From positions 372,001 to 436,000 of the forward strand of contig CP145426.1 of assembly GCA_036867785.1 (NCBI GenBank): 64,000 nt of DNA. The letters are read 5' to 3'. Below are positions 2,566 through 9,546 of this stretch, in pieces. The notes beneath the pieces were generated by a model that searched no databases, had not been told where the DNA came from, and saw only the letters and a program-made list of their open reading frames with translations. The translations under genes and the position numbers were made by a program. The stretch comes from Plasmodiophora brassicae. Its lineage: Eukaryota. Each line of letters begins with the position of its first letter. Within the stretch, counting starts at the first letter, position 1.

Positions 2566-3774
2566 GGGACGATCGGTGGTGGTTGTCTGTGGCGGTGGTA
2601 GAATATAGATGTGTGTGTGCCAGCGTCATCGCCTGTCACAGATCATTGAGCACTGGCTCGACGCGTTGACAGTATCTGACCTTTCCAGTTGACTCATGCG
2701 ACGCGAGTCAACGGCTGTGACCCAGCAGTGACAACGGTTCTTGACAGACAGTGGTGGGGGTGGTGGGCAGCCCGCTACAGATCGTGCTGCTTGGCGACGG
2801 GTCGCCGAATAAAACTGATGATGCGTGACGTCACGAAACCGAGTACGGTGCCGAGAAGCGTCTGCCATGACGACGGACACGACTGGCTTGCACCAAACGC
2901 GGCCTTGCACATGGTGCCGAGGTCGCACCGGTTGGCGATCCGATGTAGATGGCGCTGGAAGACGTCGCTGGGGCACGAGAGCGCGTTATCGCAGAACGGG
3001 ATCGGGATGGGGAGTTCATTGTGCAGAAGCTGAACGATGAATTGGCCGTCAGCACAGGCGTACGTATGGAAGGCAAGGTTTGCGGAATAGGGGACAATGT
3101 GACTCGTCCGCCAAGCGCGATGTGGCACCGACGACGAATCGGTCAGATTGTGGAACAATCCCTGATCAGGACGTCAAGGGAGCGCTGCATGCAAACACGA
3201 GCAACTGACCAGAATCCCGATCAGAGGCAGCAGCGATTCGGCGTGGCCGTGACGAATGTCAAGCAGCAGCGGTGACATGGTCCCATTCGTGATCGTCGAC
3301 ATGGACGACAGGATGTCGTCAACCAGGACGCAAGCCATGTCGTAGTTGATTGCGTTCCCAGGGCCCTGCAGCACGTTGGCCAGACTGCGATAGACGGGAT
3401 CCAGGTCGCGCCTACCTTTGCCCAGAAGTTCTCCAGGTCATCGACAGCCTCCAGCGCAGCGGCGTCTTCCGGCGAGAACAGGGGACAGGTCGTCGACGTA
3501 GTCAGCGCCAACATCTCCATCTTGCAGACCTGCCACAGCGGGTGTACGAGCGACTCGGGTATTCCGCCAGCGATTCGCCCTGCGATCCCGGGCGCGACCT
3601 GGCGCAGGCGCTGACGAGCATGGCGGACCGTGTCGGGCGCGCGGCGCGTCCTCTCGTACTCGGGGCACATGTCGAACGGCCTCAGCAGCGGGTCGGCATC
3701 CAGCGGCCCGGTCGTGTAGATGAACGCGGGTTGGTACCCATGCGGCGTAACGTTGCCAGCGCCGTGCCACAACC

Positions 3775-3942
3775 AATCGGGACACTGGTGCGACCTCGAG
3801 TCCGCAGAGTGCCTTAGATCAGCAATCATAGGGCGCCTCCCACATATACCGCGCAACACTGCCGTACGGCGTCCGTGGCGCACCAATTATACATTCTGCT
3901 ATCTGGCCTTGTCTGGTCTTGTCCGTGTCCTGCGTGCTAATT
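3775..3942 (+). repeat. 5' LTR (168 bp, AATCGGGAC...GCTAATT)
   Basis: Identical by eye to 8640-8807. The identity stops exactly at the TSD on the left and the PBS on the right. Confidence 0.95.
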
Positions 3943-3955
3943 GGTTTTGGGCCCA
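3943..3955 (+). promoter_or_regulatory. Primer-binding site, probably half-tRNAiMet (copia/Hemivirus type)
   Basis: GGTTTTGGGCCCA directly after the 5' LTR; 12/13 match to GGTTATGGGCCCA, the complement of the initiator tRNA-Met anticodon arm. Confidence 0.7.
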
Positions 3956-3967
3956 TCCCAAGCCTTA

Positions 3968-4060
3968 CCCCTGTCCCTGTTCCTGTCCCCGTCCCTGTCC
4001 CCGTCCCTGTCCCTGTTCCTGCCCCAGCCCCAGTTCCCGTACTGTCCCGTGTCCCAGCCC
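3968..4060 (+). repeat. Pyrimidine-rich hexamer tandem array (CCCTGT/CCCCGT/CCCAGC) in the retrotransposon leader
   Basis: ccctgtccctgttcctgtccccgtccctgtccccgtccctgtccctgttcctgccccagccccag... Confidence 0.85.
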
Positions 4061-4146
4061 GTGTCGTGATCCAGTTCGCGTTGTGACCGCCCGCGCCCCA
4101 CGCTCGGTTTGTACCCGTCCCTGTCCCCCTGCTCCCGCCGCCCGCA

Positions 4147-5094
4147 ATGGCGGAGGACTGGAACCAGATCGTCACAAACCTGAACTCTCAGATCCAGCAC
4201 CTGCAACAGCAACAACAACAACAGCAGCAGCTTCTACAACAACAGCACGATCAACTGCTACAACAGCAACAACTACTGCAGCAGCAACCGTCCCCACAAC
4301 AGCGAATGGTCTCACAGCATCATGTTTCCGAGCCCAAGGTCAAGCTCCCCCCCATCTACAACGGCGGCCGTGGAGAACTTCGCGGTTTCCTGAACCAAGT
4401 CAAGCTGGTTATCACCCAGCGGCCTGCCACCTATGCGACCGACGCTCAGAAGGTCGCGCTGGTGGGACAGCTGCTGGGTGGTGATGCTCTTCGGTGGTTT
4501 AATCCGTTGTTCGAAAAGGACGACGCGGTGCTGACGGAGTTCGTCGCCTTTATCAAGGCCTTCAAGACAAGGTTCGGTGACCCTCATCTAGCCGAGACTG
4601 CGGCACGGAAGCTACAGCATCTTCGTCAGGGCCGAGGCACTGTCGCCCGCTTCGCGACAGAGTTCCAAAACCTGGTGGCGGACGCCGGGTTCAACGACTC
4701 AGCCTGCCGACACATGTTCCGCGCCGGCCTGTCCAGGGACGTGCAGTTCCTGCTGCTGTCCCTGCCCGTCGCCGAGACGCTTGACGAGCTTGTCATACAG
4801 GCAATCCGGTGTGACAACCGCCTGGCCGAGCACCGATCGACCACCGCCCTCGTTCCTGTCCCTGCTGCCTCCGCCGCCGCAGTGCCGTCCGCTCCTCCCC
4901 CAGCCCCGGCCGCCGCGGTTGGGGATCCCATGGTTATCGACGCCGCGATCGGCGGTGGGCCCCGCGCGCCCTTAACCCAAGACGAGAAAGATCGCCGTCG
5001 TCGCGAAGGCCTATGCCTTTACTGCGGGGTGGCTGGCCATGTCGCAGTGTCCTGTCCCGTGCGTCCGCAGGGAAACGCCTCCCGGCGTGGCTGA
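4147..5094 (+). CDS. gag: Gag, Ty3/Gypsy sushi/PEG10-like capsid with CCHC zinc knuckle and N-terminal polyQ
   Basis: LPPIYNGGRGELRGFLNQV...KVALVGQLLGGDALRW...FGDP, LRQGRGTVARFATEF, GDPMVID, LTQDEKDRRRREGLCLYCGVAGHVAVSC. Confidence 0.92.
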   Translation: MAEDWNQIVTNLNSQIQHLQQQQQQQQQLLQQQHDQLLQQQQLLQQQPSPQQRMVSQHHVSEPKVKLPPIYNGGRGELRGFLNQVKLVITQRPATYATDAQKVALVGQLLGGDALRWFNPLFEKDDAVLTEFVAFIKAFKTRFGDPHLAETAARKLQHLRQGRGTVARFATEFQNLVADAGFNDSACRHMFRAGLSRDVQFLLLSLPVAETLDELVIQAIRCDNRLAEHRSTTALVPVPAASAAAVPSAPPPAPAAAVGDPMVIDAAIGGGPRAPLTQDEKDRRRREGLCLYCGVAGHVAVSCPVRPQGNASRRG

Positions 5095-5151
5095 AATCCC
5101 GGTCGGTCGCCACGCCTACCAATACACCTGTTCCATCATGCAACCCCGACC
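5070..5151 (+). promoter_or_regulatory. -1 programmed ribosomal frameshift signal (slippery G GGA AAC plus stem/pseudoknot)
   Basis: G_GGA_AAC at 5070-5076 in the gag frame, with pol in the -1 frame. After a 7-nt spacer GGCGTGGC (5084-5091) pairs with GCCACGCC (5109-5116); loop GGTCGG (5101-5106) can pair with CCGACC (5146-5151). Confidence 0.85.
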
Positions 5152-8100
5152 ACTTCTTTCCCGAGCCAAGTATGATTTCCGCGTCCACCAACCTCGTCGA
5201 GCACTTGGACCGTGTCCTAAGCATAGACGTGTCCCTTCAACTCGACAATGGCAAGACTGTACAGACGACGGCACTTATCGACTCAGGAGCAACCAACGAC
5301 TTCATACACTCCGACTTCGCCCGCGCTCACAACGTTCCGCTCACCAAGAAACCCGCACCGGTAGATCTGGAGGTAATTGACGGGCGGCGGCTACCGAAGG
5401 TGGCGCTGGAAACGGCCCCTGTCCGCCTCAGTATCGGCAACCACTCCGAATCGATCGTGCTGAACGTAATCGACTCCCCGCGATTCCCGATTATCCTCGG
5501 CATGACCTGGCTCTCAAGGCACAACCCGAGCATTAACTGGACACACCGAACGATGGAGATTACTCGTGTCGCTCAGGACGCCGCGCGCGAACAGAGCGAA
5601 CCCAAGGAAGCCATCACAGCCCTAACCTTGCACGACAATGGCGTATTCTCTCAGCAACCAGACCCACCACCTCAAGACCTCTCGCCACCCACACGACACG
5701 AACGGCGGTCGAGGGCCCGTGTTGACAGCGGCAAGGTGCCCTACGCCGTTCCGCTTCCCGGGGATTGGAACCAAGCCCAGAGTCTCAAGCGTTGGCACCA
5801 CCGCCTCGGCCACCGTAACCTGCGTGACGTCATCCTGATGGCAAATCATGACCTTACCGAATCCATGGAGATCCTGGCACAGAAGGTTGACAGGTTCTGC
5901 GAAGGGTGCGCTATCGCGAAAGCCAAGGAACGTCCTTTCCCCTCGGAGTCCAAAGAAAAACAGTGGAACGTGCTCGAGAGAATCGACGTCGACGAATGCG
6001 GACCGCTTCCCGTCGCCTCACTCAAAGGGGAGCGATACTTTATCACGTTCACGGAATTTGCAACCAGGATGAAATTTACCTTCCTGTTGCACCACAAGAA
6101 CCAGGCGCTGACCAAGTTCAAGGAGCTCAAGACTCGAATTGAGAATCGCCTGGAGAAATCCATTAAGATCCTCTTCGGCGACAACGATGGGGTATTCATC
6201 AACAACGAGTTCAAGGCGTTCTTGCAGGACAACGGGATCGAGTGGAGATCAACGGTGGAGTATTCCTCCAAGCAGAACGGTGTCTCCGAACGGGGACACC
6301 TGACGCTCATGGACTCCGGTCGCGCAATGCTCGTACACGCAAGGCTCCCCAAGCAGTTCTGGGGACCCGCAATTCTGACTGCCAGCCAGGTCCATAATCT
6401 CTGCCCCCACCCACGCGATCCCTCGACCACGCCCCATGAAATGCTGTCGCGCTCGAAACCTGATATCCGCTACCTTAGAACGTTCGGGTGCGACGCATAT
6501 GGCTACGTCCCGTCCAGCCAGAGAACGAAGCTGGACCCACGCGCCGTGAAAGGCATCTTCATCGGATATGCAGATCACCAGAAAGGGTACGTCCTCTATC
6601 ACCCTTCGTCCGGCCTGATCAAGGTGTACCGCAGCGTGACGTTCAGCGAAGACAGCTTCGGCGGCCGCAGTGCGGACGACGCCCTCGCCGATCCCGAGGA
6701 ACCTGAGTCTGGATACGACAGCGACTACGTTCCCTCCGGTGACGAACCCGCTGTCGAGGGGGCGCAGTCCGCCGCAGGCCCCAATGAGGATCCGCGACCT
6801 CCCACCGAACGAGCCCGGCGTCTCTCCCGCAAGCCAGACCGTTTAGGAGATCCCGTCCACCACGCCTGGATCGCGTCCCTGCAACCTACCAACGACGATC
6901 CTATTCACCACATGTGGATAGGTTCCACACATCAATGCGACGACGACGATGACGCCGCGCTCAATGCAGATGACCCCGACACTCCAAACACATATGAAGA
7001 CGCCATGGCAAGTCCCGAGGCAGAGTTCTGGACTAAGGCGATGGCCGATGAATTGAAGAGCCTGAAACAGCACAAGACATGGGAAGCCGTGGAGCGACTA
7101 CCCGTCGGGGCACGCCCCATCGGATGCCGCTGGGTCTACAAGCGCAAGATCACCAAGTCAAGTCAGATCCCGCCGGACACCACCTGGGTTCTCCGCCATG
7201 ACCCCGACGGTGTCACCTCCTACCGGTACAAGGCTCGACTATGCATACTCGGCTACAGACAGCGCCAGGGGATCGACTACACGAACACCTATGCGCCAGT
7301 CGTCCGGAGCGACATCCTCCGTCTAGTACTAGCCCTGTCCGTCCAAGACAAGGAGATCATCGCCGAGCAGATGGATGTGATGACCGCATTCCTCAACGCC
7401 CACCTCACCGAAGAGATCTACATGGACTCCCCGAAAGGGATGAAGGCCAGAACCCGTTTCGTCAAGCTCCTACGATCGATCTATGGCCTGAAACAGGCCC
7501 CAAGAGAATGGTTCAAGGTCATCGACGCCTTCCTCGTTAACGAATGCGGGTTCCAACGAGCCAAGTCCGCATCGTGCTTGTACTTCAAACGTGGTCCAAC
7601 TGGACGGCTCGTCATTGTTGGGGTCTACGTCGATGATATTCCCATCGTCGGACATCCCGAACTCGTACAGGAAACCAAGTCAGCCCTCTCGAAGAGATTC
7701 AAGATGTCGGACATGGGAGAGCTTCAATCAGTCATTGGCTTCGACGTCGATAGACAAGGTAGATCGGTGTTCCTGTCGCAAGAACGCTACACGAAAACTA
7801 TCCTCGACACCTACGGCATGGCCGAATCGCGCCCCGTCTCGACACCGGCAGATGCGAACTTGAAGTTATCCACATCACTGTGCCCGCAGAACCAGGCCGA
7901 TCGCGAACTTGCCGCCTTAGAAGGCCAGCGCATCAACTATCGAGCAGCGGTAGGTCACCTAATGTGGCTGCTGCACACCCGGCCAGACATCGCCTATGCG
8001 GTGAACGAGGTCTCCCGATACGTGCAAGACCCAGGGCCAGCGCACTTCGTCGCGCTGAAGCGAGTCTTCAGGTACCTCAACGGCACTCGCAACTACGGCC

Positions 8101-8696
8101 TCCTGTTCGAAGGAGGTGGGGAAACGGCCACACCGCTCCTGGTCGGCTACTCCGATTCTGATTGGGGTGGAGACCTCGACACACGACGATCGACTTCGGG
8201 GTGCGTGTTCCTTCTGAATGGCTGCCCGGTTTCATTTCGCTCTAAGAAGCAGACCACGGTCGCGTTATCGTCGTGCGAGGCGGAGACGGTGGCGTCAACA
8301 CTCGCGGCAACAGAAGGCGTCTGGTTGCGCAATGTGCTGGACGAACTAGGTTTTCCACAAGCTCAGCCTACACCTCTACACGTAGACAATCAGGGGGCGA
8401 TCGCGTTCGCCAACAGCGAAATCAACCACAGCAAGATGAAACATCTCGCGCTCAAGGACCACTTCGTCAGAGAACTGGTGGCATCCAACCAGATCAAGGT
8501 GCACTACGTCCGCTCGTGCGAGAACCTCGCCGACATCTTCACGAAACCGCTCGGAAAGCACAAGTTCGTAGAATTCCGTGCGGCCCTCAAGTGCGTACCG
8601 CATCCCCACATGAACTTGGACTCTCAGGTCGAGGGGGGGAATCGGGACACTGGTGCGACCTCGAGTCCGCAGAGTGCCTTAGATCAGCAATCATAG
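5070..8696 (+). CDS. pol: Pol (via -1 frameshift): Gypsy-type aspartic protease, GAG-pre-integrase, rve integrase, RVT_2 reverse transcriptase, Ty1-type RNase H
   Basis: ALIDSGATNDFI...IILGMTWLSRHNPSINW; WHHRLGH...CEGC; DECGP/GDND/NGVSER; KLDPRAVKGIFIGY; RYKARL, QMDVMTAFLN, SIYGLKQAPREW, YVDD; GYSDSDWGGD, DNQGAI, ADIFTKPL. Confidence 0.95.
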   Translation, partial: GKRLPAWLKSRSVATPTNTPVPSCNPDHFFPEPSMISASTNLVEHLDRVLSIDVSLQLDNGKTVQTTALIDSGATNDFIHSDFARAHNVPLTKKPAPVDLEVIDGRRLPKVALETAPVRLSIGNHSESIVLNVIDSPRFPIILGMTWLSRHNPSINWTHRTMEITRVAQDAAREQSEPKEAITALTLHDNGVFSQQPDPPPQDLSPPTRHERRSRARVDSGKVPYAVPLPGDWNQAQSLKRWHHRLGHRNLRDVILMANHDLTESMEILAQKVDRFCEGCAIAKAKERPFPSESKEKQWNVLERIDVDECGPLPVASLKGERYFITFTEFATRMKFTFLLHHKNQALTKFKELKTRIENRLEKSIKILFGDNDGVFINNEFKAFLQDNGIEWRSTVEYSSKQNGVSERGHLTLMDSGRAMLVHARLPKQFWGPAILTASQVHNLCPHPRDPSTTPHEMLSRSKPDIRYLRTFGCDAYGYVPSSQRTKLDPRAVKGIFIGYADHQKGYVLYHPSSGLIKVYRSVTFSEDSFGGRSADDALADPEEPESGYDSDYVPSGDEPAVEGAQSAAGPNEDPRPPTERARRLSRKPDRLGDPVHHAWIASLQPTNDDPIHHMWIGSTHQCDDDDDAALNADDPDTPNTYEDAMASPEAEFWTKAMADELKSLKQHKTWEAVERLPVGARPIGCRWVYKRKITKSSQIPPDTTWVLRHDPDGVTSYRYKARLCILGYRQRQGIDYTNTYAPVVRSDILRLVLALSVQDKEIIAEQMDVMTAFLNAHLTEEIYMDSPKGMKARTRFVKLLRSIYGLKQAPREWFKVIDAFLVNECGFQRAKSASCLYFKRGPTGRLVIVGVYVDDIPIVGHPELVQETKSALSKRFKMSDMGELQSVIGFDVDRQGRSVFLSQERYTKTILDTYGMAESRPVSTPADANLKLSTSLCPQNQADRELAALEGQRINYRAAVGHLMWLLHTRPDIAYAVNEVSRYVQDPGPAHFVALKRVFRYLNGTRNYGLLFEGGGETATPLLVGYSDSDWGGDLDTRRSTSGCVFLLNGCPVSFRSKKQTTVALSSCEAETVASTLAATEGVWLRNVLDELGFPQAQPTPLHVDNQGAIAFANSEINHSKMKHLALKDHFVRELVASNQIKVHYVRSCENLADIFTKPLGKHKFVEFRAALKCVPHPHMNLDSQVEGGNRDTGATSSPQSALDQQS
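8631..8639 (+). promoter_or_regulatory. Polypurine tract
   Basis: GAGGGGGGG directly 5' of the 3' LTR. Confidence 0.9.
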
Positions 8697-8807
8697 GGCG
8701 CCTCCCACATATACCGCGCAACACTGCCGTACGGCGTCCGTGGCGCACCAATTATACATTCTGCTATCTGGCCTTGTCTGGTCTTGTCCGTGTCCTGCGT
8801 GCTAATT
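8640..8807 (+). repeat. 3' LTR (168 bp)
   Basis: Direct repeat of 3775-3942, followed by TSD CAACC. Confidence 0.95.
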
Positions 8808-9546
8808 CAACCCATACGCCATGGCGCTGGCCGATTGCCCGGCACGGTGCTTCTGCGTGGACCTTTCACTGGTTCAGCGCCATGGAACGGGTGCGAACAG
8901 GTGCAACGACGACCTTAGTCGGCATCGTTCCGGGTGGTACGCTGACGCGAACAGGTCCGGGTGCCGTTCCCGGATCCGTCGTCCGAGTTCGAATTGTTCG
9001 TGCAGGCCGGCGACGGTGAGATGCCCGGCCAGCGCGTCGTCGAACGGGTCGTCGGGCATCCACGATCGCGACCCAAGCAATTGCTGCACGCGCTGGCGGA
9101 CGTCGCGGTACAGCCGTAGCTTCGATCGGGTCGGGTATCGCGACCCGTGACGAACGACCATGCTGATCTGGCGCAGGCGGCACTCGCCGACGACGCCGGG
9201 CGCCGGCGAGTGCCGCCACCGGTCGCCGTACGGCGTGCTCGACGACAGGTGCTGCCGAATATCGAACGACGCGTCGACGACGCCGACCCAGATCAGCGCC
9301 ATCATCGCCGCCGCAACCGCCATCCGACGGCCGCGACACAAAATCCGAATGGCCAACGTTGCGCGACTGCGCGCGCCACGTGCCGGTAACTCGTTCCCCG
9401 ATTCTGCGCGCGACTGCCGTGACTGGGACACGCAATCTCGACCCGTACGCGGCTACGTCGCGCGGCGAATGTTGCGTGACTGTGCGTCCCGTCTCCCGCT
9501 ACGCGACACCGCGCGACTGGTGATCTGACACGAGGGTACACATGAC

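What the first reader, a model, noticed from the sequence alone, without database searches (positions are those of the whole stretch)
5070..5151. PEG10-like -1 frameshift (G GGA AAC plus predicted H-type pseudoknot) controlling a Copia-type pol
Seen: an in-frame X_XXY_YYZ heptamer just after the zinc knuckle, a 7-nt spacer, an 8-bp GC-rich stem (5084-5091/5109-5116) and a 6-bp loop-to-downstream pairing (5101-5106/5146-5151). Gag stops at 5094 and pol is in the -1 frame with no natural ATG at its start. Established: G GGA AAC with a pseudoknot is the PEG10 signal, whereas Copia elements usually use a single ORF, splicing or a +1 shift. This independently supports a Gypsy origin for the 5' half.
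Basis: partly seen in the sequence, partly recalled or inferred. Interest (0 to 1): 0.75.

Follow-up and report, generated by a model that had tools for sequence, protein, structure and literature searches.

The report
Gypsy-type frameshift signal driving Copia polymerase
A young, intact jumping gene carries the classic "slip back one base" signal between its coat-protein and enzyme genes; the signal is ordinary for Gypsy-type elements but here feeds a Copia-type enzyme set, because the element is a natural hybrid of the two families.

Summary
G_GGA_AAC (5070-5076) lies in the gag frame. A 7-nt spacer and a perfect 8-bp stem (5084-5091/5109-5116) follow. Gag stops at 5092-5094 and pol is open in the -1 frame.

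Comparison shows a real -1 frameshift site. A 43%-identical relative of the same hybrid type (L001) has the identical in-frame heptamer, a hairpin and a stop at the same place. Three classic Ty3/Gypsy relatives of this gag (L004-L006) have G_GAA_AAC, G_GGA_AAU or A_AAA_AAC there. Of 118 diverged gag proteins, 58 end with [G/E/K]-Asn a few residues before the stop, against 7% of control windows. A roughly 84%-identical subfamily shows one listed change across 5051-5114.

The proposed second stem (5101-5106/5146-5151) is complementary but not above chance. Pol-frame ATGs exist at 5013 and 5172.

The element (3775-8807) has identical LTRs and a 5-bp target duplication. It joins a Ty3/PEG10-type gag and protease to Copia-type integrase, RT and RNase H. 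The signal is a known kind in an unusual context. Frameshifting has not been measured. Interest 0.5.

The parts
3770..3774 (+). target-site duplication CAACC (left copy)
   Evidence: same 5 bases at 8808-8812
3775..3942 (+). 5' LTR, 168 nt
   Evidence: 100% identical to 8640-8807
4147..5094 (+). gag ORF, Ty3/PEG10-type capsid plus CCHC knuckle (knuckle about 5014-5055)
   Evidence: ORF. First ATG is at 4147. Pfam PF03732, PF19259, PF16297. PDB hit PEG10.
5070..5076 (+). slippery heptamer G_GGA_AAC in the gag frame
   Evidence: Identical heptamer in L001 at 1536-1542.
5077..5083 (+). 7-nt spacer
   Evidence: The diverged subfamily has C>T at 5082.
5084..5116 (+). stem 1 hairpin: 8 bp (5084-5091 with 5109-5116) and a 17-nt loop that begins with the gag stop TGA at 5092-5094
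   Evidence: In the subfamily 5084-5114 shows no listed change and position 5115 reads T, which keeps a G-U pair.
5101..5151 (+). proposed stem 2 (5101-5106 with 5146-5151); complementary but unproven
   Evidence: not above chance
5076..8696 (+). pol in the -1 frame as read after the shift (the frame is open from 4815)
5262..5570 (+). protease, Ty3-type (RVP_2)
   Evidence: Pfam PF08284, residues 150-252 of P0002. This part of the family profile hits Gypsy ORFs.
5778..6659 (+). integrase, Copia-type (gag_pre-integrs, rve, SH3_retrovirus)
7176..7850 (+). reverse transcriptase, Copia-type (RVT_2); an RNase H region follows
   Evidence: E 1.4e-58
8631..8639 (+). polypurine tract GAGGGGGGG abutting the 3' LTR
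8640..8807 (+). 3' LTR; the pol ORF ends inside it at 8696
8808..8812 (+). target-site duplication CAACC (right copy)

Best explanation
The segment 5070-5116 is the programmed -1 ribosomal frameshift cassette of an intact, recently inserted LTR retrotransposon (3775-8807).

Inferred mechanism: most ribosomes translating gag read Gly-Asn (GGA AAC), five more codons, and stop at 5092-5094, giving Gag alone. A minority pause with GGA and AAC in the P and A sites, because the 8-bp G+C-rich hairpin 7 nt downstream sits at the mRNA entry channel. The two tRNAs slip back one base onto GGG and AAA. Translation then continues from the codon that starts at 5076, giving a Gag-Pol fusion of Ty3-type protease followed by Copia-type integrase, RT and RNase H. 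This sets the excess of Gag over Pol needed for particle assembly.

Shown: the anatomy, its conservation, and the family affiliations of the proteins. Inferred: that ribosomes shift here, how often, and that the hairpin is the stimulator. The signal belongs to the Ty3/PEG10-type gag-protease module, which in this lineage is joined to a Copia-type integrase-RT-RNase H module.
For: 1. Anatomy. The in-frame G_GGA_AAC is the only in-frame heptamer in the 280-nt overlap. The spacer is 7 nt. Stem 1 is 8 bp, with pair probability 0.83-0.97 in downstream-only folds and 0.45-0.47 in a fold that also includes upstream RNA (4950-5300), and lies in the top 3.5% of 45-nt windows.

2. Closest DNA relative. 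L001 has the same hybrid architecture and 43% pol identity. It has an identical in-frame GGGAAAC, which is the only in-frame heptamer in its 199-nt overlap. A 5-nt spacer follows, then a 10-bp hairpin of different sequence whose 5' arm also ends at the stop TGA. L001 has no Met in the pol frame between the frame opening and the protease.

3. Gypsy relatives. Of the 9 gag-related loci, three classic Ty3/Gypsy elements have pol in the -1 frame with a site at the homologous place: G_GAA_AAC in L004, G_GGA_AAU in L005 and A_AAA_AAC in L006. Each is followed after 6-8 nt by a hairpin.

4. Gag tails. Of the 150 best representatives of this gag family, 118 have a knuckle and a tail of at most 40 aa. 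Gly-Asn lies 2-12 residues before the C-terminus in 31 of 118, against 63 of 2479 control windows. [G/E/K]-Asn does so in 58 of 118, against 177 of 2479. The distance peaks at 4-6 residues; this window has 5.

5. Conserved island. Contigs of a subfamily carry 26 differences in about 140-150 nt at 4695-4845 and 32 in 200 nt at 5347-5546. They align again at 5051-5114 with one listed change (5082), and the next base keeps the pair as G-U.

6. Chance. An A/U-type in-frame heptamer in the last 10 gag codons arose in 187 of 20000 codon shuffles.

7. The copy is alive. It has identical LTRs and a TSD, and near-identical copies with other flanks stand in other runs.

8. Known shiftiness. Passages of PMC5009743 list G_GGA_AAC among the shiftiest eukaryotic heptamers.
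Against: - No measurement of frameshifting, no transframe peptide and no RNA evidence; no listed run is on record as RNA.
- Fold statistics alone are weak. For the 50-nt fold, z is -1.9 here, -1.5 in L001, and -0.6 and -0.2 in L004 and L006. For 5077-5160, z is -1.1. Stem-1 pair probability falls to 0.45-0.47 when upstream RNA is included in the fold.
- In this G+C-rich overlap some in-frame XXXYYYZ arises in about half of shuffles.
- A pol-frame ATG at 5172 lies upstream of the protease, so separate initiation is not excluded by sequence alone.
- L004 lacks a canonical heptamer.
- The Gly-Asn tail statistic is at protein level; the codons behind it were seen only in 5 loci.
- The table of differences is truncated (91 rows not shown).
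Confidence: 0.8

Rival explanations
1. The stimulator is the full H-type pseudoknot drawn by the first reader: stem 1 plus the loop-to-downstream stem 2 (5101-5106 with 5146-5151; L1 = 9, L2 = 2, L3 = 29 nt), as in PEG10. This refines the best explanation and is not exclusive of it.
For: - There is a perfect 6-bp G+C-rich complement (duplex -9.5 kcal/mol), and the topology is sterically possible.
- The 17-nt loop shows no listed change in the diverged subfamily.
- The Gypsy relatives L004 and L005 have loop-to-downstream helices that are rare in controls: 3.9% and 1.5% of shuffles, 3.1% and 4.0% of natural windows.
- Fisher's combination over the 5 loci gives p = 0.024.
- PEG10 uses GGGAAAC plus a compact H-type pseudoknot (passages of PMC13622457).
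Against: - In this element an equally good stem 2 arises in 6.5% of shuffles and in 13.8% of natural windows.
- In the closest relative L001 the best candidate is 5 bp, at 21.7% and 59.6% in the same two controls. In L006 the figures are 69% and 32%.
- The long L3 (29 nt) is unlike a compact knot.
- The nested fold prefers extra pairs inside the loop.
- The subfamily's partner region was not visible.
- No Rfam family matched.
Confidence: 0.3
2. Pol is made without frameshifting: by initiation at the pol-frame ATG 5172 (or 5013), by reinitiation after the gag stop, or from a spliced or subgenomic RNA. The heptamer is then incidental.
For: - ATG 5172 lies 78 nt after the gag stop and upstream of the protease.
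- Some Copia elements balance Gag and Pol by splicing or separate RNAs (abstracts of PMC5580714 and PMC3735527 in the listing).
Against: - Ten ATGs precede 5172 on the element's RNA.
- L001 has no pol-frame Met before its protease, yet keeps the heptamer.
- The heptamer-to-stop spacing is conserved across the gag family.
- No joint listed links gag to pol. Those contigs cannot show RNA, so this point is weak.
Confidence: 0.08
3. The frame break is damage or an assembly error in a dead copy, and the heptamer and stem are chance.
For: Single-copy frame breaks are common in retrotransposon remnants. L006 has a second break at a T run, and L007 has one at Ns.
Against: - The LTRs are 100% identical, the TSD is intact, and both ORFs are open over their full lengths.
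- The same -1 arrangement stands in L001, L004, L005 and L006.
- Contigs of four other runs cover 5048-5228 with no insertion or deletion listed within 5070-5116; the nearest is a 5-base insertion behind 5203 in one X3 contig.
Confidence: 0.03

Closest known systems
PEG10 (Edr) -1 frameshift signal, and the same GGGAAAC in PNMA3, PNMA5 and Rtl3 (domesticated Ty3/Gypsy genes)
   Same: Identical heptamer G_GGA_AAC placed just after the gag zinc knuckle, with a structured RNA a few nt downstream (passages of PMC13622457, and of PMC11299033). The gag is homologous: PDB 7lga_A at 4.8e-11 and PF16297.
   Different: PEG10's stimulator is a compact, experimentally defined H-type pseudoknot. Here only a hairpin is supported. 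PEG10 is an immobile host gene that keeps only part of pol (passage of PMC11299033). This is a mobile element with LTRs and a full pol whose integrase, RT and RNase H are Copia-type.
Ty3/Gypsy (Metaviridae) gag-pol -1 frameshifting, surveyed by Gao et al. 2003 (RNA 9:1422)
   Same: Pol in the -1 frame, a classical heptamer near the end of gag, and a Ty3-type capsid and RVP_2 protease. The relatives L004-L006 are such elements. The 2003 survey is described in a passage of PMC5009743.
   Different: After the protease this element continues with integrase and then an RVT_2 reverse transcriptase (Copia order and families), not RVT_1, RNase H and then integrase. Gao et al. itself is not held; its content is known here only from that passage and from recall.
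Ty1/Copia (Pseudoviridae) expression strategies: Ty1, Ty2 and Ty4 +1 shift, Ty5 single ORF, Tca2 stop codon, plant Copia splicing
   Same: Integrase-RT-RNase H order and families. The nearest integrase/RT relatives are classic Copia elements (P0032; L018).
   Different: Passages of PMC7175516 and the abstract of PMC5580714 (listing) describe +1 shifts, a single ORF, a stop codon or splicing for Copia elements. None of the passages I read describes a -1 heptamer shift for a Copia element. Here both gag and protease are Ty3-type.
Gmr1-like elements (Goodwin and Poulter 2002): Ty3/Gypsy-like elements with Copia-like pol domain order
   Same: A Gypsy-type element with integrase upstream of RT.
   Different: Seen only as a title in the reference list of PMC2774666. 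By recall, Gmr1 proteins are all Gypsy-like and merely reordered. Here the integrase and RT themselves belong to Copia families (PF13976, PF25597, PF07727).

Membership tests
Canonical eukaryotic -1 programmed ribosomal frameshift cassette (gag-pol type) | Downstream ORF in the -1 frame, overlapping the upstream ORF | tested here: met
   gag 4087-5094 and pol open 4815-8696, one base back
Canonical eukaryotic -1 programmed ribosomal frameshift cassette (gag-pol type) | X_XXY_YYZ heptamer phased in the zero frame inside the overlap | tested here: met
   G_GGA_AAC at 5070-5076, the only in-frame heptamer in the overlap
Canonical eukaryotic -1 programmed ribosomal frameshift cassette (gag-pol type) | Stable RNA structure 5-9 nt downstream | tested here: met
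   7-nt spacer and 8-bp stem; -16.2 kcal/mol for 5084-5116; pair probability 0.83-0.97 downstream-only, 0.45-0.47 with upstream RNA; top 3.5% of windows; z only -1.1 to -1.9
Canonical eukaryotic -1 programmed ribosomal frameshift cassette (gag-pol type) | Site conserved in relatives | tested here: met
   L001 identical; L005 and L006 canonical variants; L004 near-cognate; gag tail statistic; conserved island
Canonical eukaryotic -1 programmed ribosomal frameshift cassette (gag-pol type) | Measured frameshifting or a transframe protein | not testable with these tools
   needs a reporter assay, ribosome profiling or mass spectrometry
PEG10/Edr-type signal | Heptamer GGGAAAC after a PEG10-like gag | tested here: met
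PEG10/Edr-type signal | Compact H-type pseudoknot as stimulator | tested here: inconclusive
   stem 2 complement exists, but at 6.5% of shuffles and 13.8% of natural windows; L3 is 29 nt
PEG10/Edr-type signal | RNA homology to the PEG10 element | not tested
   no PEG10 RNA sequence came from a tool; the Rfam scan of 3700-8900 gave no relevant match
Ty1/Copia (Pseudoviridae) | Pol order protease-integrase-RT-RNase H with RVT_2-type RT and Copia-type integrase | tested here: met
   PF13976, PF00665, PF25597 and PF07727 in that order
Ty1/Copia (Pseudoviridae) | Copia-type gag (PF14223, PF14244) and Copia-type protease (PF22936) | tested here: not met
   absent here and in P0028-P0031 and L001; present in the conventional relatives
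Ty3/Gypsy (Metaviridae) | Ty3-type capsid gag and RVP_2-type protease | tested here: met
   PF03732, PF19259 and PF08284; the protease part of the family profile hits Gypsy ORFs
Ty3/Gypsy (Metaviridae) | RVT_1-type RT with order RT-RNase H-integrase | tested here: not met
   the RT is RVT_2 and lies after the integrase

The most novel reading that the evidence does not exclude
This is a living, multi-host lineage of recombinant LTR retrotransposons. A Metaviridae (Ty3/PEG10-type) gag, -1 frameshift cassette and protease were grafted onto a Pseudoviridae (Copia) integrase-RT-RNase H backbone. A Copia-type polymerase is then expressed and packaged through a retrovirus-style -1 frameshift, a strategy I did not find described for Copia elements. 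It would show that capsid/protease and integrase/RT modules of the two families are functionally interchangeable.
Probability: 0.55. Interest if true: 0.65.

Novelty: new variant of a known kind. Interest (0 to 1): 0.5.

Why it matters
The frameshift signal is textbook for Ty3/Gypsy elements and their domesticated descendants such as PEG10. Its value here is as a marker. It shows that the gag, recoding signal and protease block moves as one module, and that this module can serve a polymerase from another retroelement family.

- If the shift is confirmed, Copia-type enzymes gain a fourth expression strategy, besides a single ORF, splicing and a +1 shift.
- The element would give a natural experiment on how the Gag:Pol ratio and Gag-Pol packaging tolerate a heterologous integrase and RT.
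- The conserved [G/E/K]-Asn tail, 4-6 residues before the gag stop, is a simple protein-level tag for -1 frameshift sites in tens of thousands of uncharacterised gag genes.

Tried and rejected
- The window's own genome is not held. The window holds only this one copy. Earlier scan notes returned nothing.
- Scans of viral contigs with gag and pol profiles found no relative.
- The metagenome scan gave only one locus that reaches the junction, L001. L002 and L003 cover only the RT and RNase H region.
- Sequencing runs: no RNA holder is listed. The four runs laid are contigs, so they say nothing about transcription, splicing or RNA ends. The joints 4845>5051 and 5114>5347 belong to a diverged subfamily with unknown letters in between, and one of those runs is labelled DNA, so I do not read them as introns.
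- The subfamily's sequence beyond about 30 nt after 5114 was not visible, so conservation of the stem-2 partner could not be tested.
- The Rfam scan of 3700-8900 gave only two sub-threshold, irrelevant matches. No tRNA gene lies in the window, so the primer-binding site could not be matched to a tRNA.
- A MAFFT alignment of the five junctions (A4) lines up heptamer and stop but not the 3' arms. I therefore made no formal pair-covariation count; comparing stem 1 between the window and L001 is by eye.
- L007, L009 and L010 (Gypsy, single frame or with Ns) and L011 (no heptamer, short overlap) were left out of the structure tests. L008 and L012 were not analysed at the junction.
- Literature searches for a described Copia/Gypsy hybrid lineage found only nested 'complex transposons' in PMC3248453 (passages) and 'chimeric structures' filtered out in PMC5445492 (passages). 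This does not prove that none is in print. Gao et al. 2003 is not held.
- I did not try to name the host organism.
Full report
**1. The observation.**
- The gag frame (4087-5094; first ATG 4147) reads CAG GGA AAC GCC TCC CGG CGT GGC TGA. GGGAAAC at 5070-5076 is therefore phased G_GGA_AAC, and gag ends at 5092-5094.
- A frame one base back is open from 4815 to 8696.
- After a 7-nt spacer, GGCGTGGC (5084-5091) is the perfect complement of GCCACGCC (5109-5116).
- GGTCGG (5101-5106), in the 17-nt loop, is the perfect complement of CCGACC (5146-5151).
- One detail is imprecise. The pol frame does contain ATGs, at 5013 and 5172.

**2. What the element is.**
- A 168-nt direct repeat, 100% identical, lies at 3775-3942 and 8640-8807.
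- It is flanked by the 5-bp duplication CAACC (3770-3774 and 8808-8812), and the polypurine tract GAGGGGGGG abuts the 3' repeat.
- This is a 5033-bp LTR retrotransposon that inserted very recently. The window holds no second copy.
- Pfam splits its proteins between two families.
  - Gag matches Retrotrans_gag (PF03732, 6.6e-15), Ty3_capsid (PF19259) and DUF4939 (PF16297).
  - The first pol domain is the Ty3-type protease RVP_2 (PF08284).
  - The rest is gag_pre-integrase, rve, SH3_retrovirus and RVT_2 (1.4e-58), which is the Copia order and the Copia families.
- The only solved structure that gag hits by sequence is PEG10 (7lga_A, 4.8e-11).

**3. The hybrid is a lineage, not an accident.**
- I searched pol residues 86-620 against 5.8 billion proteins. 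The four best hits (P0028-P0031, 45-52% identity) cover 84-88% of the region including the protease, and they lack Copia gag and Copia protease domains.
- The next hits cover only the integrase and carry PF14223 and PF22936.
- A metagenome contig, L001, has the same architecture.
- I searched a profile of the five family members (A3) against five assemblies that hold contaminating eukaryotic contigs. Profile positions 5-154 (protease) hit Gypsy ORFs. Positions 157-1097 hit classic Copia ORFs.
- One of those Copia hits, L018, is a single ORF with a Copia gag, Pol_BBD, integrase and RVT_2.
- The junction between the two modules therefore lies in the linker between protease and integrase, about 5571-5777 in the window.
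- The element, or near-identical copies, stands in 20 of the 24 listed runs, from 11 studies and five coded organisms plus plant metagenomes.
- Laid contigs leave the LTR into different flanks, which means other insertion sites.

**4. Is the frameshift site real?**
Taken alone, the window is not decisive.
- In this G+C-rich overlap, some in-frame XXXYYYZ arises in 48-56% of shuffles.
- The fold of 5077-5160 has z = -1.1.

The specific configuration is rare.
- An A/U-type heptamer within the last ten gag codons arose in 187 of 20000 codon shuffles.
- The 45-nt window holding stem 1 is among the most stable 3.5% of windows in the element.
- Stem-1 pair probabilities are 0.83-0.97 when only RNA downstream of the ribosome is folded (5077-5200 and 5077-5160). 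They fall to 0.45-0.47 when upstream RNA is included (4950-5300).

The comparative evidence is what decides it.
- a. L001 has pol in the -1 frame and the identical heptamer, in frame, at 1536-1542. It is the only in-frame heptamer in its 199-nt overlap.
  - A 5-nt spacer follows, then a 10-bp hairpin. The 5' arm of that hairpin ends exactly at the stop TGA, as in the window.
  - Anchored on the stop codon, the arms differ at several pairs while complementarity is kept. This is by eye, not a formal count.
  - L001 has no Met in the pol frame before its protease.
- b. A scan of genome contigs with the gag profile gave 9 loci.
  - Three are classic Ty3/Gypsy elements with pol in the -1 frame.
  - At the homologous place, 5-7 codons before the stop, they carry G_GGA_AAU (L005), A_AAA_AAC (L006) and G_GAA_AAC (L004). 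Each is followed by a hairpin 6-8 nt on.
  - A passage of PMC5009743 lists G_GA among non-standard first parts of shift sites.
  - L007, L009 and L010 are single-frame Gypsy elements. L011 has no heptamer.
- c. A profile search of 1.84 billion representatives found 40661 gag relatives.
  - Of the best 150, 118 have a CCHC knuckle followed by a tail of at most 40 residues.
  - Gly-Asn lies 2-12 residues before the C-terminus in 31 of 118, against 63 of 2479 control windows from the same proteins. [G/E/K]-Asn does so in 58 of 118, against 177 of 2479.
  - The distance to the stop peaks at 4-6 residues. The window has 5.
  - Leu-Asn, Gly-Phe, Asn-Phe and Phe-Leu are not enriched.
- d. Contigs from three runs belong to a diverged subfamily.
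  - They carry 26 differences in about 140-150 nt at 4695-4845 and 32 in 200 nt at 5347-5546.
  - They fail to align over 4846-5050, then align again over 5051-5114 with a single listed change (5082 C>T, in the spacer).
  - The next base, at 5115, reads T, which turns the 5085-5115 pair into G-U.
  - That table is truncated, with 91 rows not shown.

Heptamer, spacer, stem 1 and loop thus form an island of conservation.

**5. The pseudoknot.**
- The stem-2 complement is real and thermodynamically respectable (-9.5 kcal/mol as a duplex).
- An equal or better loop-to-downstream helix arises in 6.5% of shuffles of loop and downstream sequence. It arises with 13.8% of natural 80-nt windows of the same element.
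- In L001 the best candidate is 5 bp (21.7% and 59.6% in the same two controls). In L006 there is nothing notable.
- L004 and L005 do have helices that are rare in controls: 3.9% and 1.5% of shuffles, 3.1% and 4.0% of natural windows.
- Fisher's combination over the five loci gives p = 0.024. A pseudoknot habit in this wider group is therefore possible, but it is not shown for this element.
- The 29-nt third loop is unlike the compact PEG10 knot described in passages of PMC13622457.

**6. Mechanism.**
The best-supported reading (0.8) is standard tandem-slippage -1 frameshifting.
- Ribosomes pause over GGA and AAC because of the stem-1 hairpin. The two tRNAs re-pair on GGG and AAA. A minority of ribosomes continue in the pol frame from 5076 and make Gag-protease-integrase-RT-RNase H.
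- The rest terminate five codons later.

The anatomy, conservation and protein affiliations are shown. The slippage itself, its efficiency and the role of the hairpin are inferred.

Rivals:
- Separate initiation at 5172 or a spliced RNA: 0.08. Ten upstream ATGs precede it, no Met is conserved in L001, and the heptamer is conserved.
- A damaged copy or an assembly error: 0.03. The LTRs are identical, both frames are intact, and relatives have the same arrangement.

**7. Comparison with what is known.**
- GGGAAAC followed by a structure 5-8 nt downstream is the signal of PEG10, PNMA3, PNMA5 and Rtl3, all derived from Ty3/Gypsy gag (passages of PMC11299033; PMC13622457).
- A 2003 survey found pol in the -1 frame, with classical heptamers, in many animal Ty3/Gypsy elements (passage of PMC5009743). 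The survey itself is not held.
- For Copia-type elements, the passages I read describe +1 shifts (Ty1, Ty2, Ty4), a single ORF (Ty5) and a stop codon (Tca2) (PMC7175516), and splicing (abstract of PMC5580714, listing).
- As a recoding signal, this one is therefore an ordinary member of the Ty3/PEG10 kind. The unusual part is that it gates a Copia-type integrase and RT.
- The element fails full membership of either family (see Membership tests).
- Three literature searches did not turn up a described Copia/Gypsy hybrid lineage of this type. Nested 'complex transposons' are described in PMC3248453. Gmr1-like Gypsy elements with Copia domain order appear only as a cited title.

**8. Verdict.**
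- Stem 2 is present but not above chance.
It is unproven for the pseudoknot.
- Novelty: a new variant of a known kind.
- Interest: 0.5.

Noticed in passing
window 3775-3942 and 8640-8807: The LTRs are short (168 nt). They begin AATC and end AATT, rather than the usual TG...CA. The pol ORF runs 57 nt into the 3' LTR. Family members end pol with Val-Glu-Gly/Arg-Gly-Asn/Ser, so the polypurine tract and the LTR start are coded within pol.
   Followed up: partly
window 3943-3965: The sequence just after the 5' LTR does not begin with TGG, so the primer-binding site is not of the usual tRNA 3'-end type. Priming by an internal tRNA fragment, as in some Copia elements (recalled), is a lead. No tRNA gene lies in the window to test it.
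   Followed up: no
proteins P0100 and P0110 (alignment A2): Two metagenome polyproteins have the Gypsy order and families (RVP_2, RVT_1, RT_RNaseH). Their C-terminal integrase nevertheless aligns with this element's Copia-type integrase (PF13976, PF25597; about 31-33% identity). This may be a different Gypsy/Copia module combination.
   Followed up: no
window 4180-4321 and 3960-4043: The gag N-terminus holds a CAG/CAA (poly-Gln) tract, seen as 7 overlapping repeat copies. The 5' untranslated leader holds a repeated CCCTGTCC-like motif. Read laying flagged both stretches as repeats where contigs break.
   Followed up: no
L004-L012: Nine contigs filed under bacterial metagenome-assembled genomes encode eukaryotic LTR-retrotransposon gag and pol genes. 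This is likely eukaryotic contamination of those bins. The same bins hold further Copia and Gypsy contigs.
   Followed up: partly
L006:1726-1834: This chromovirus has a second -1 frame break inside the RT, next to a T run (TTTTTTG, out of phase). It is more likely a mutation or a sequencing error than a second recoding site.
   Followed up: no
window 3600-9000 in runs X3, X4, X5, X20: The element is multi-copy and nearly identical (99% or more) across runs labelled as four different coded organisms. It coexists with a subfamily of roughly 84% identity. This is compatible with very recent activity or with horizontal spread.
   Followed up: partly
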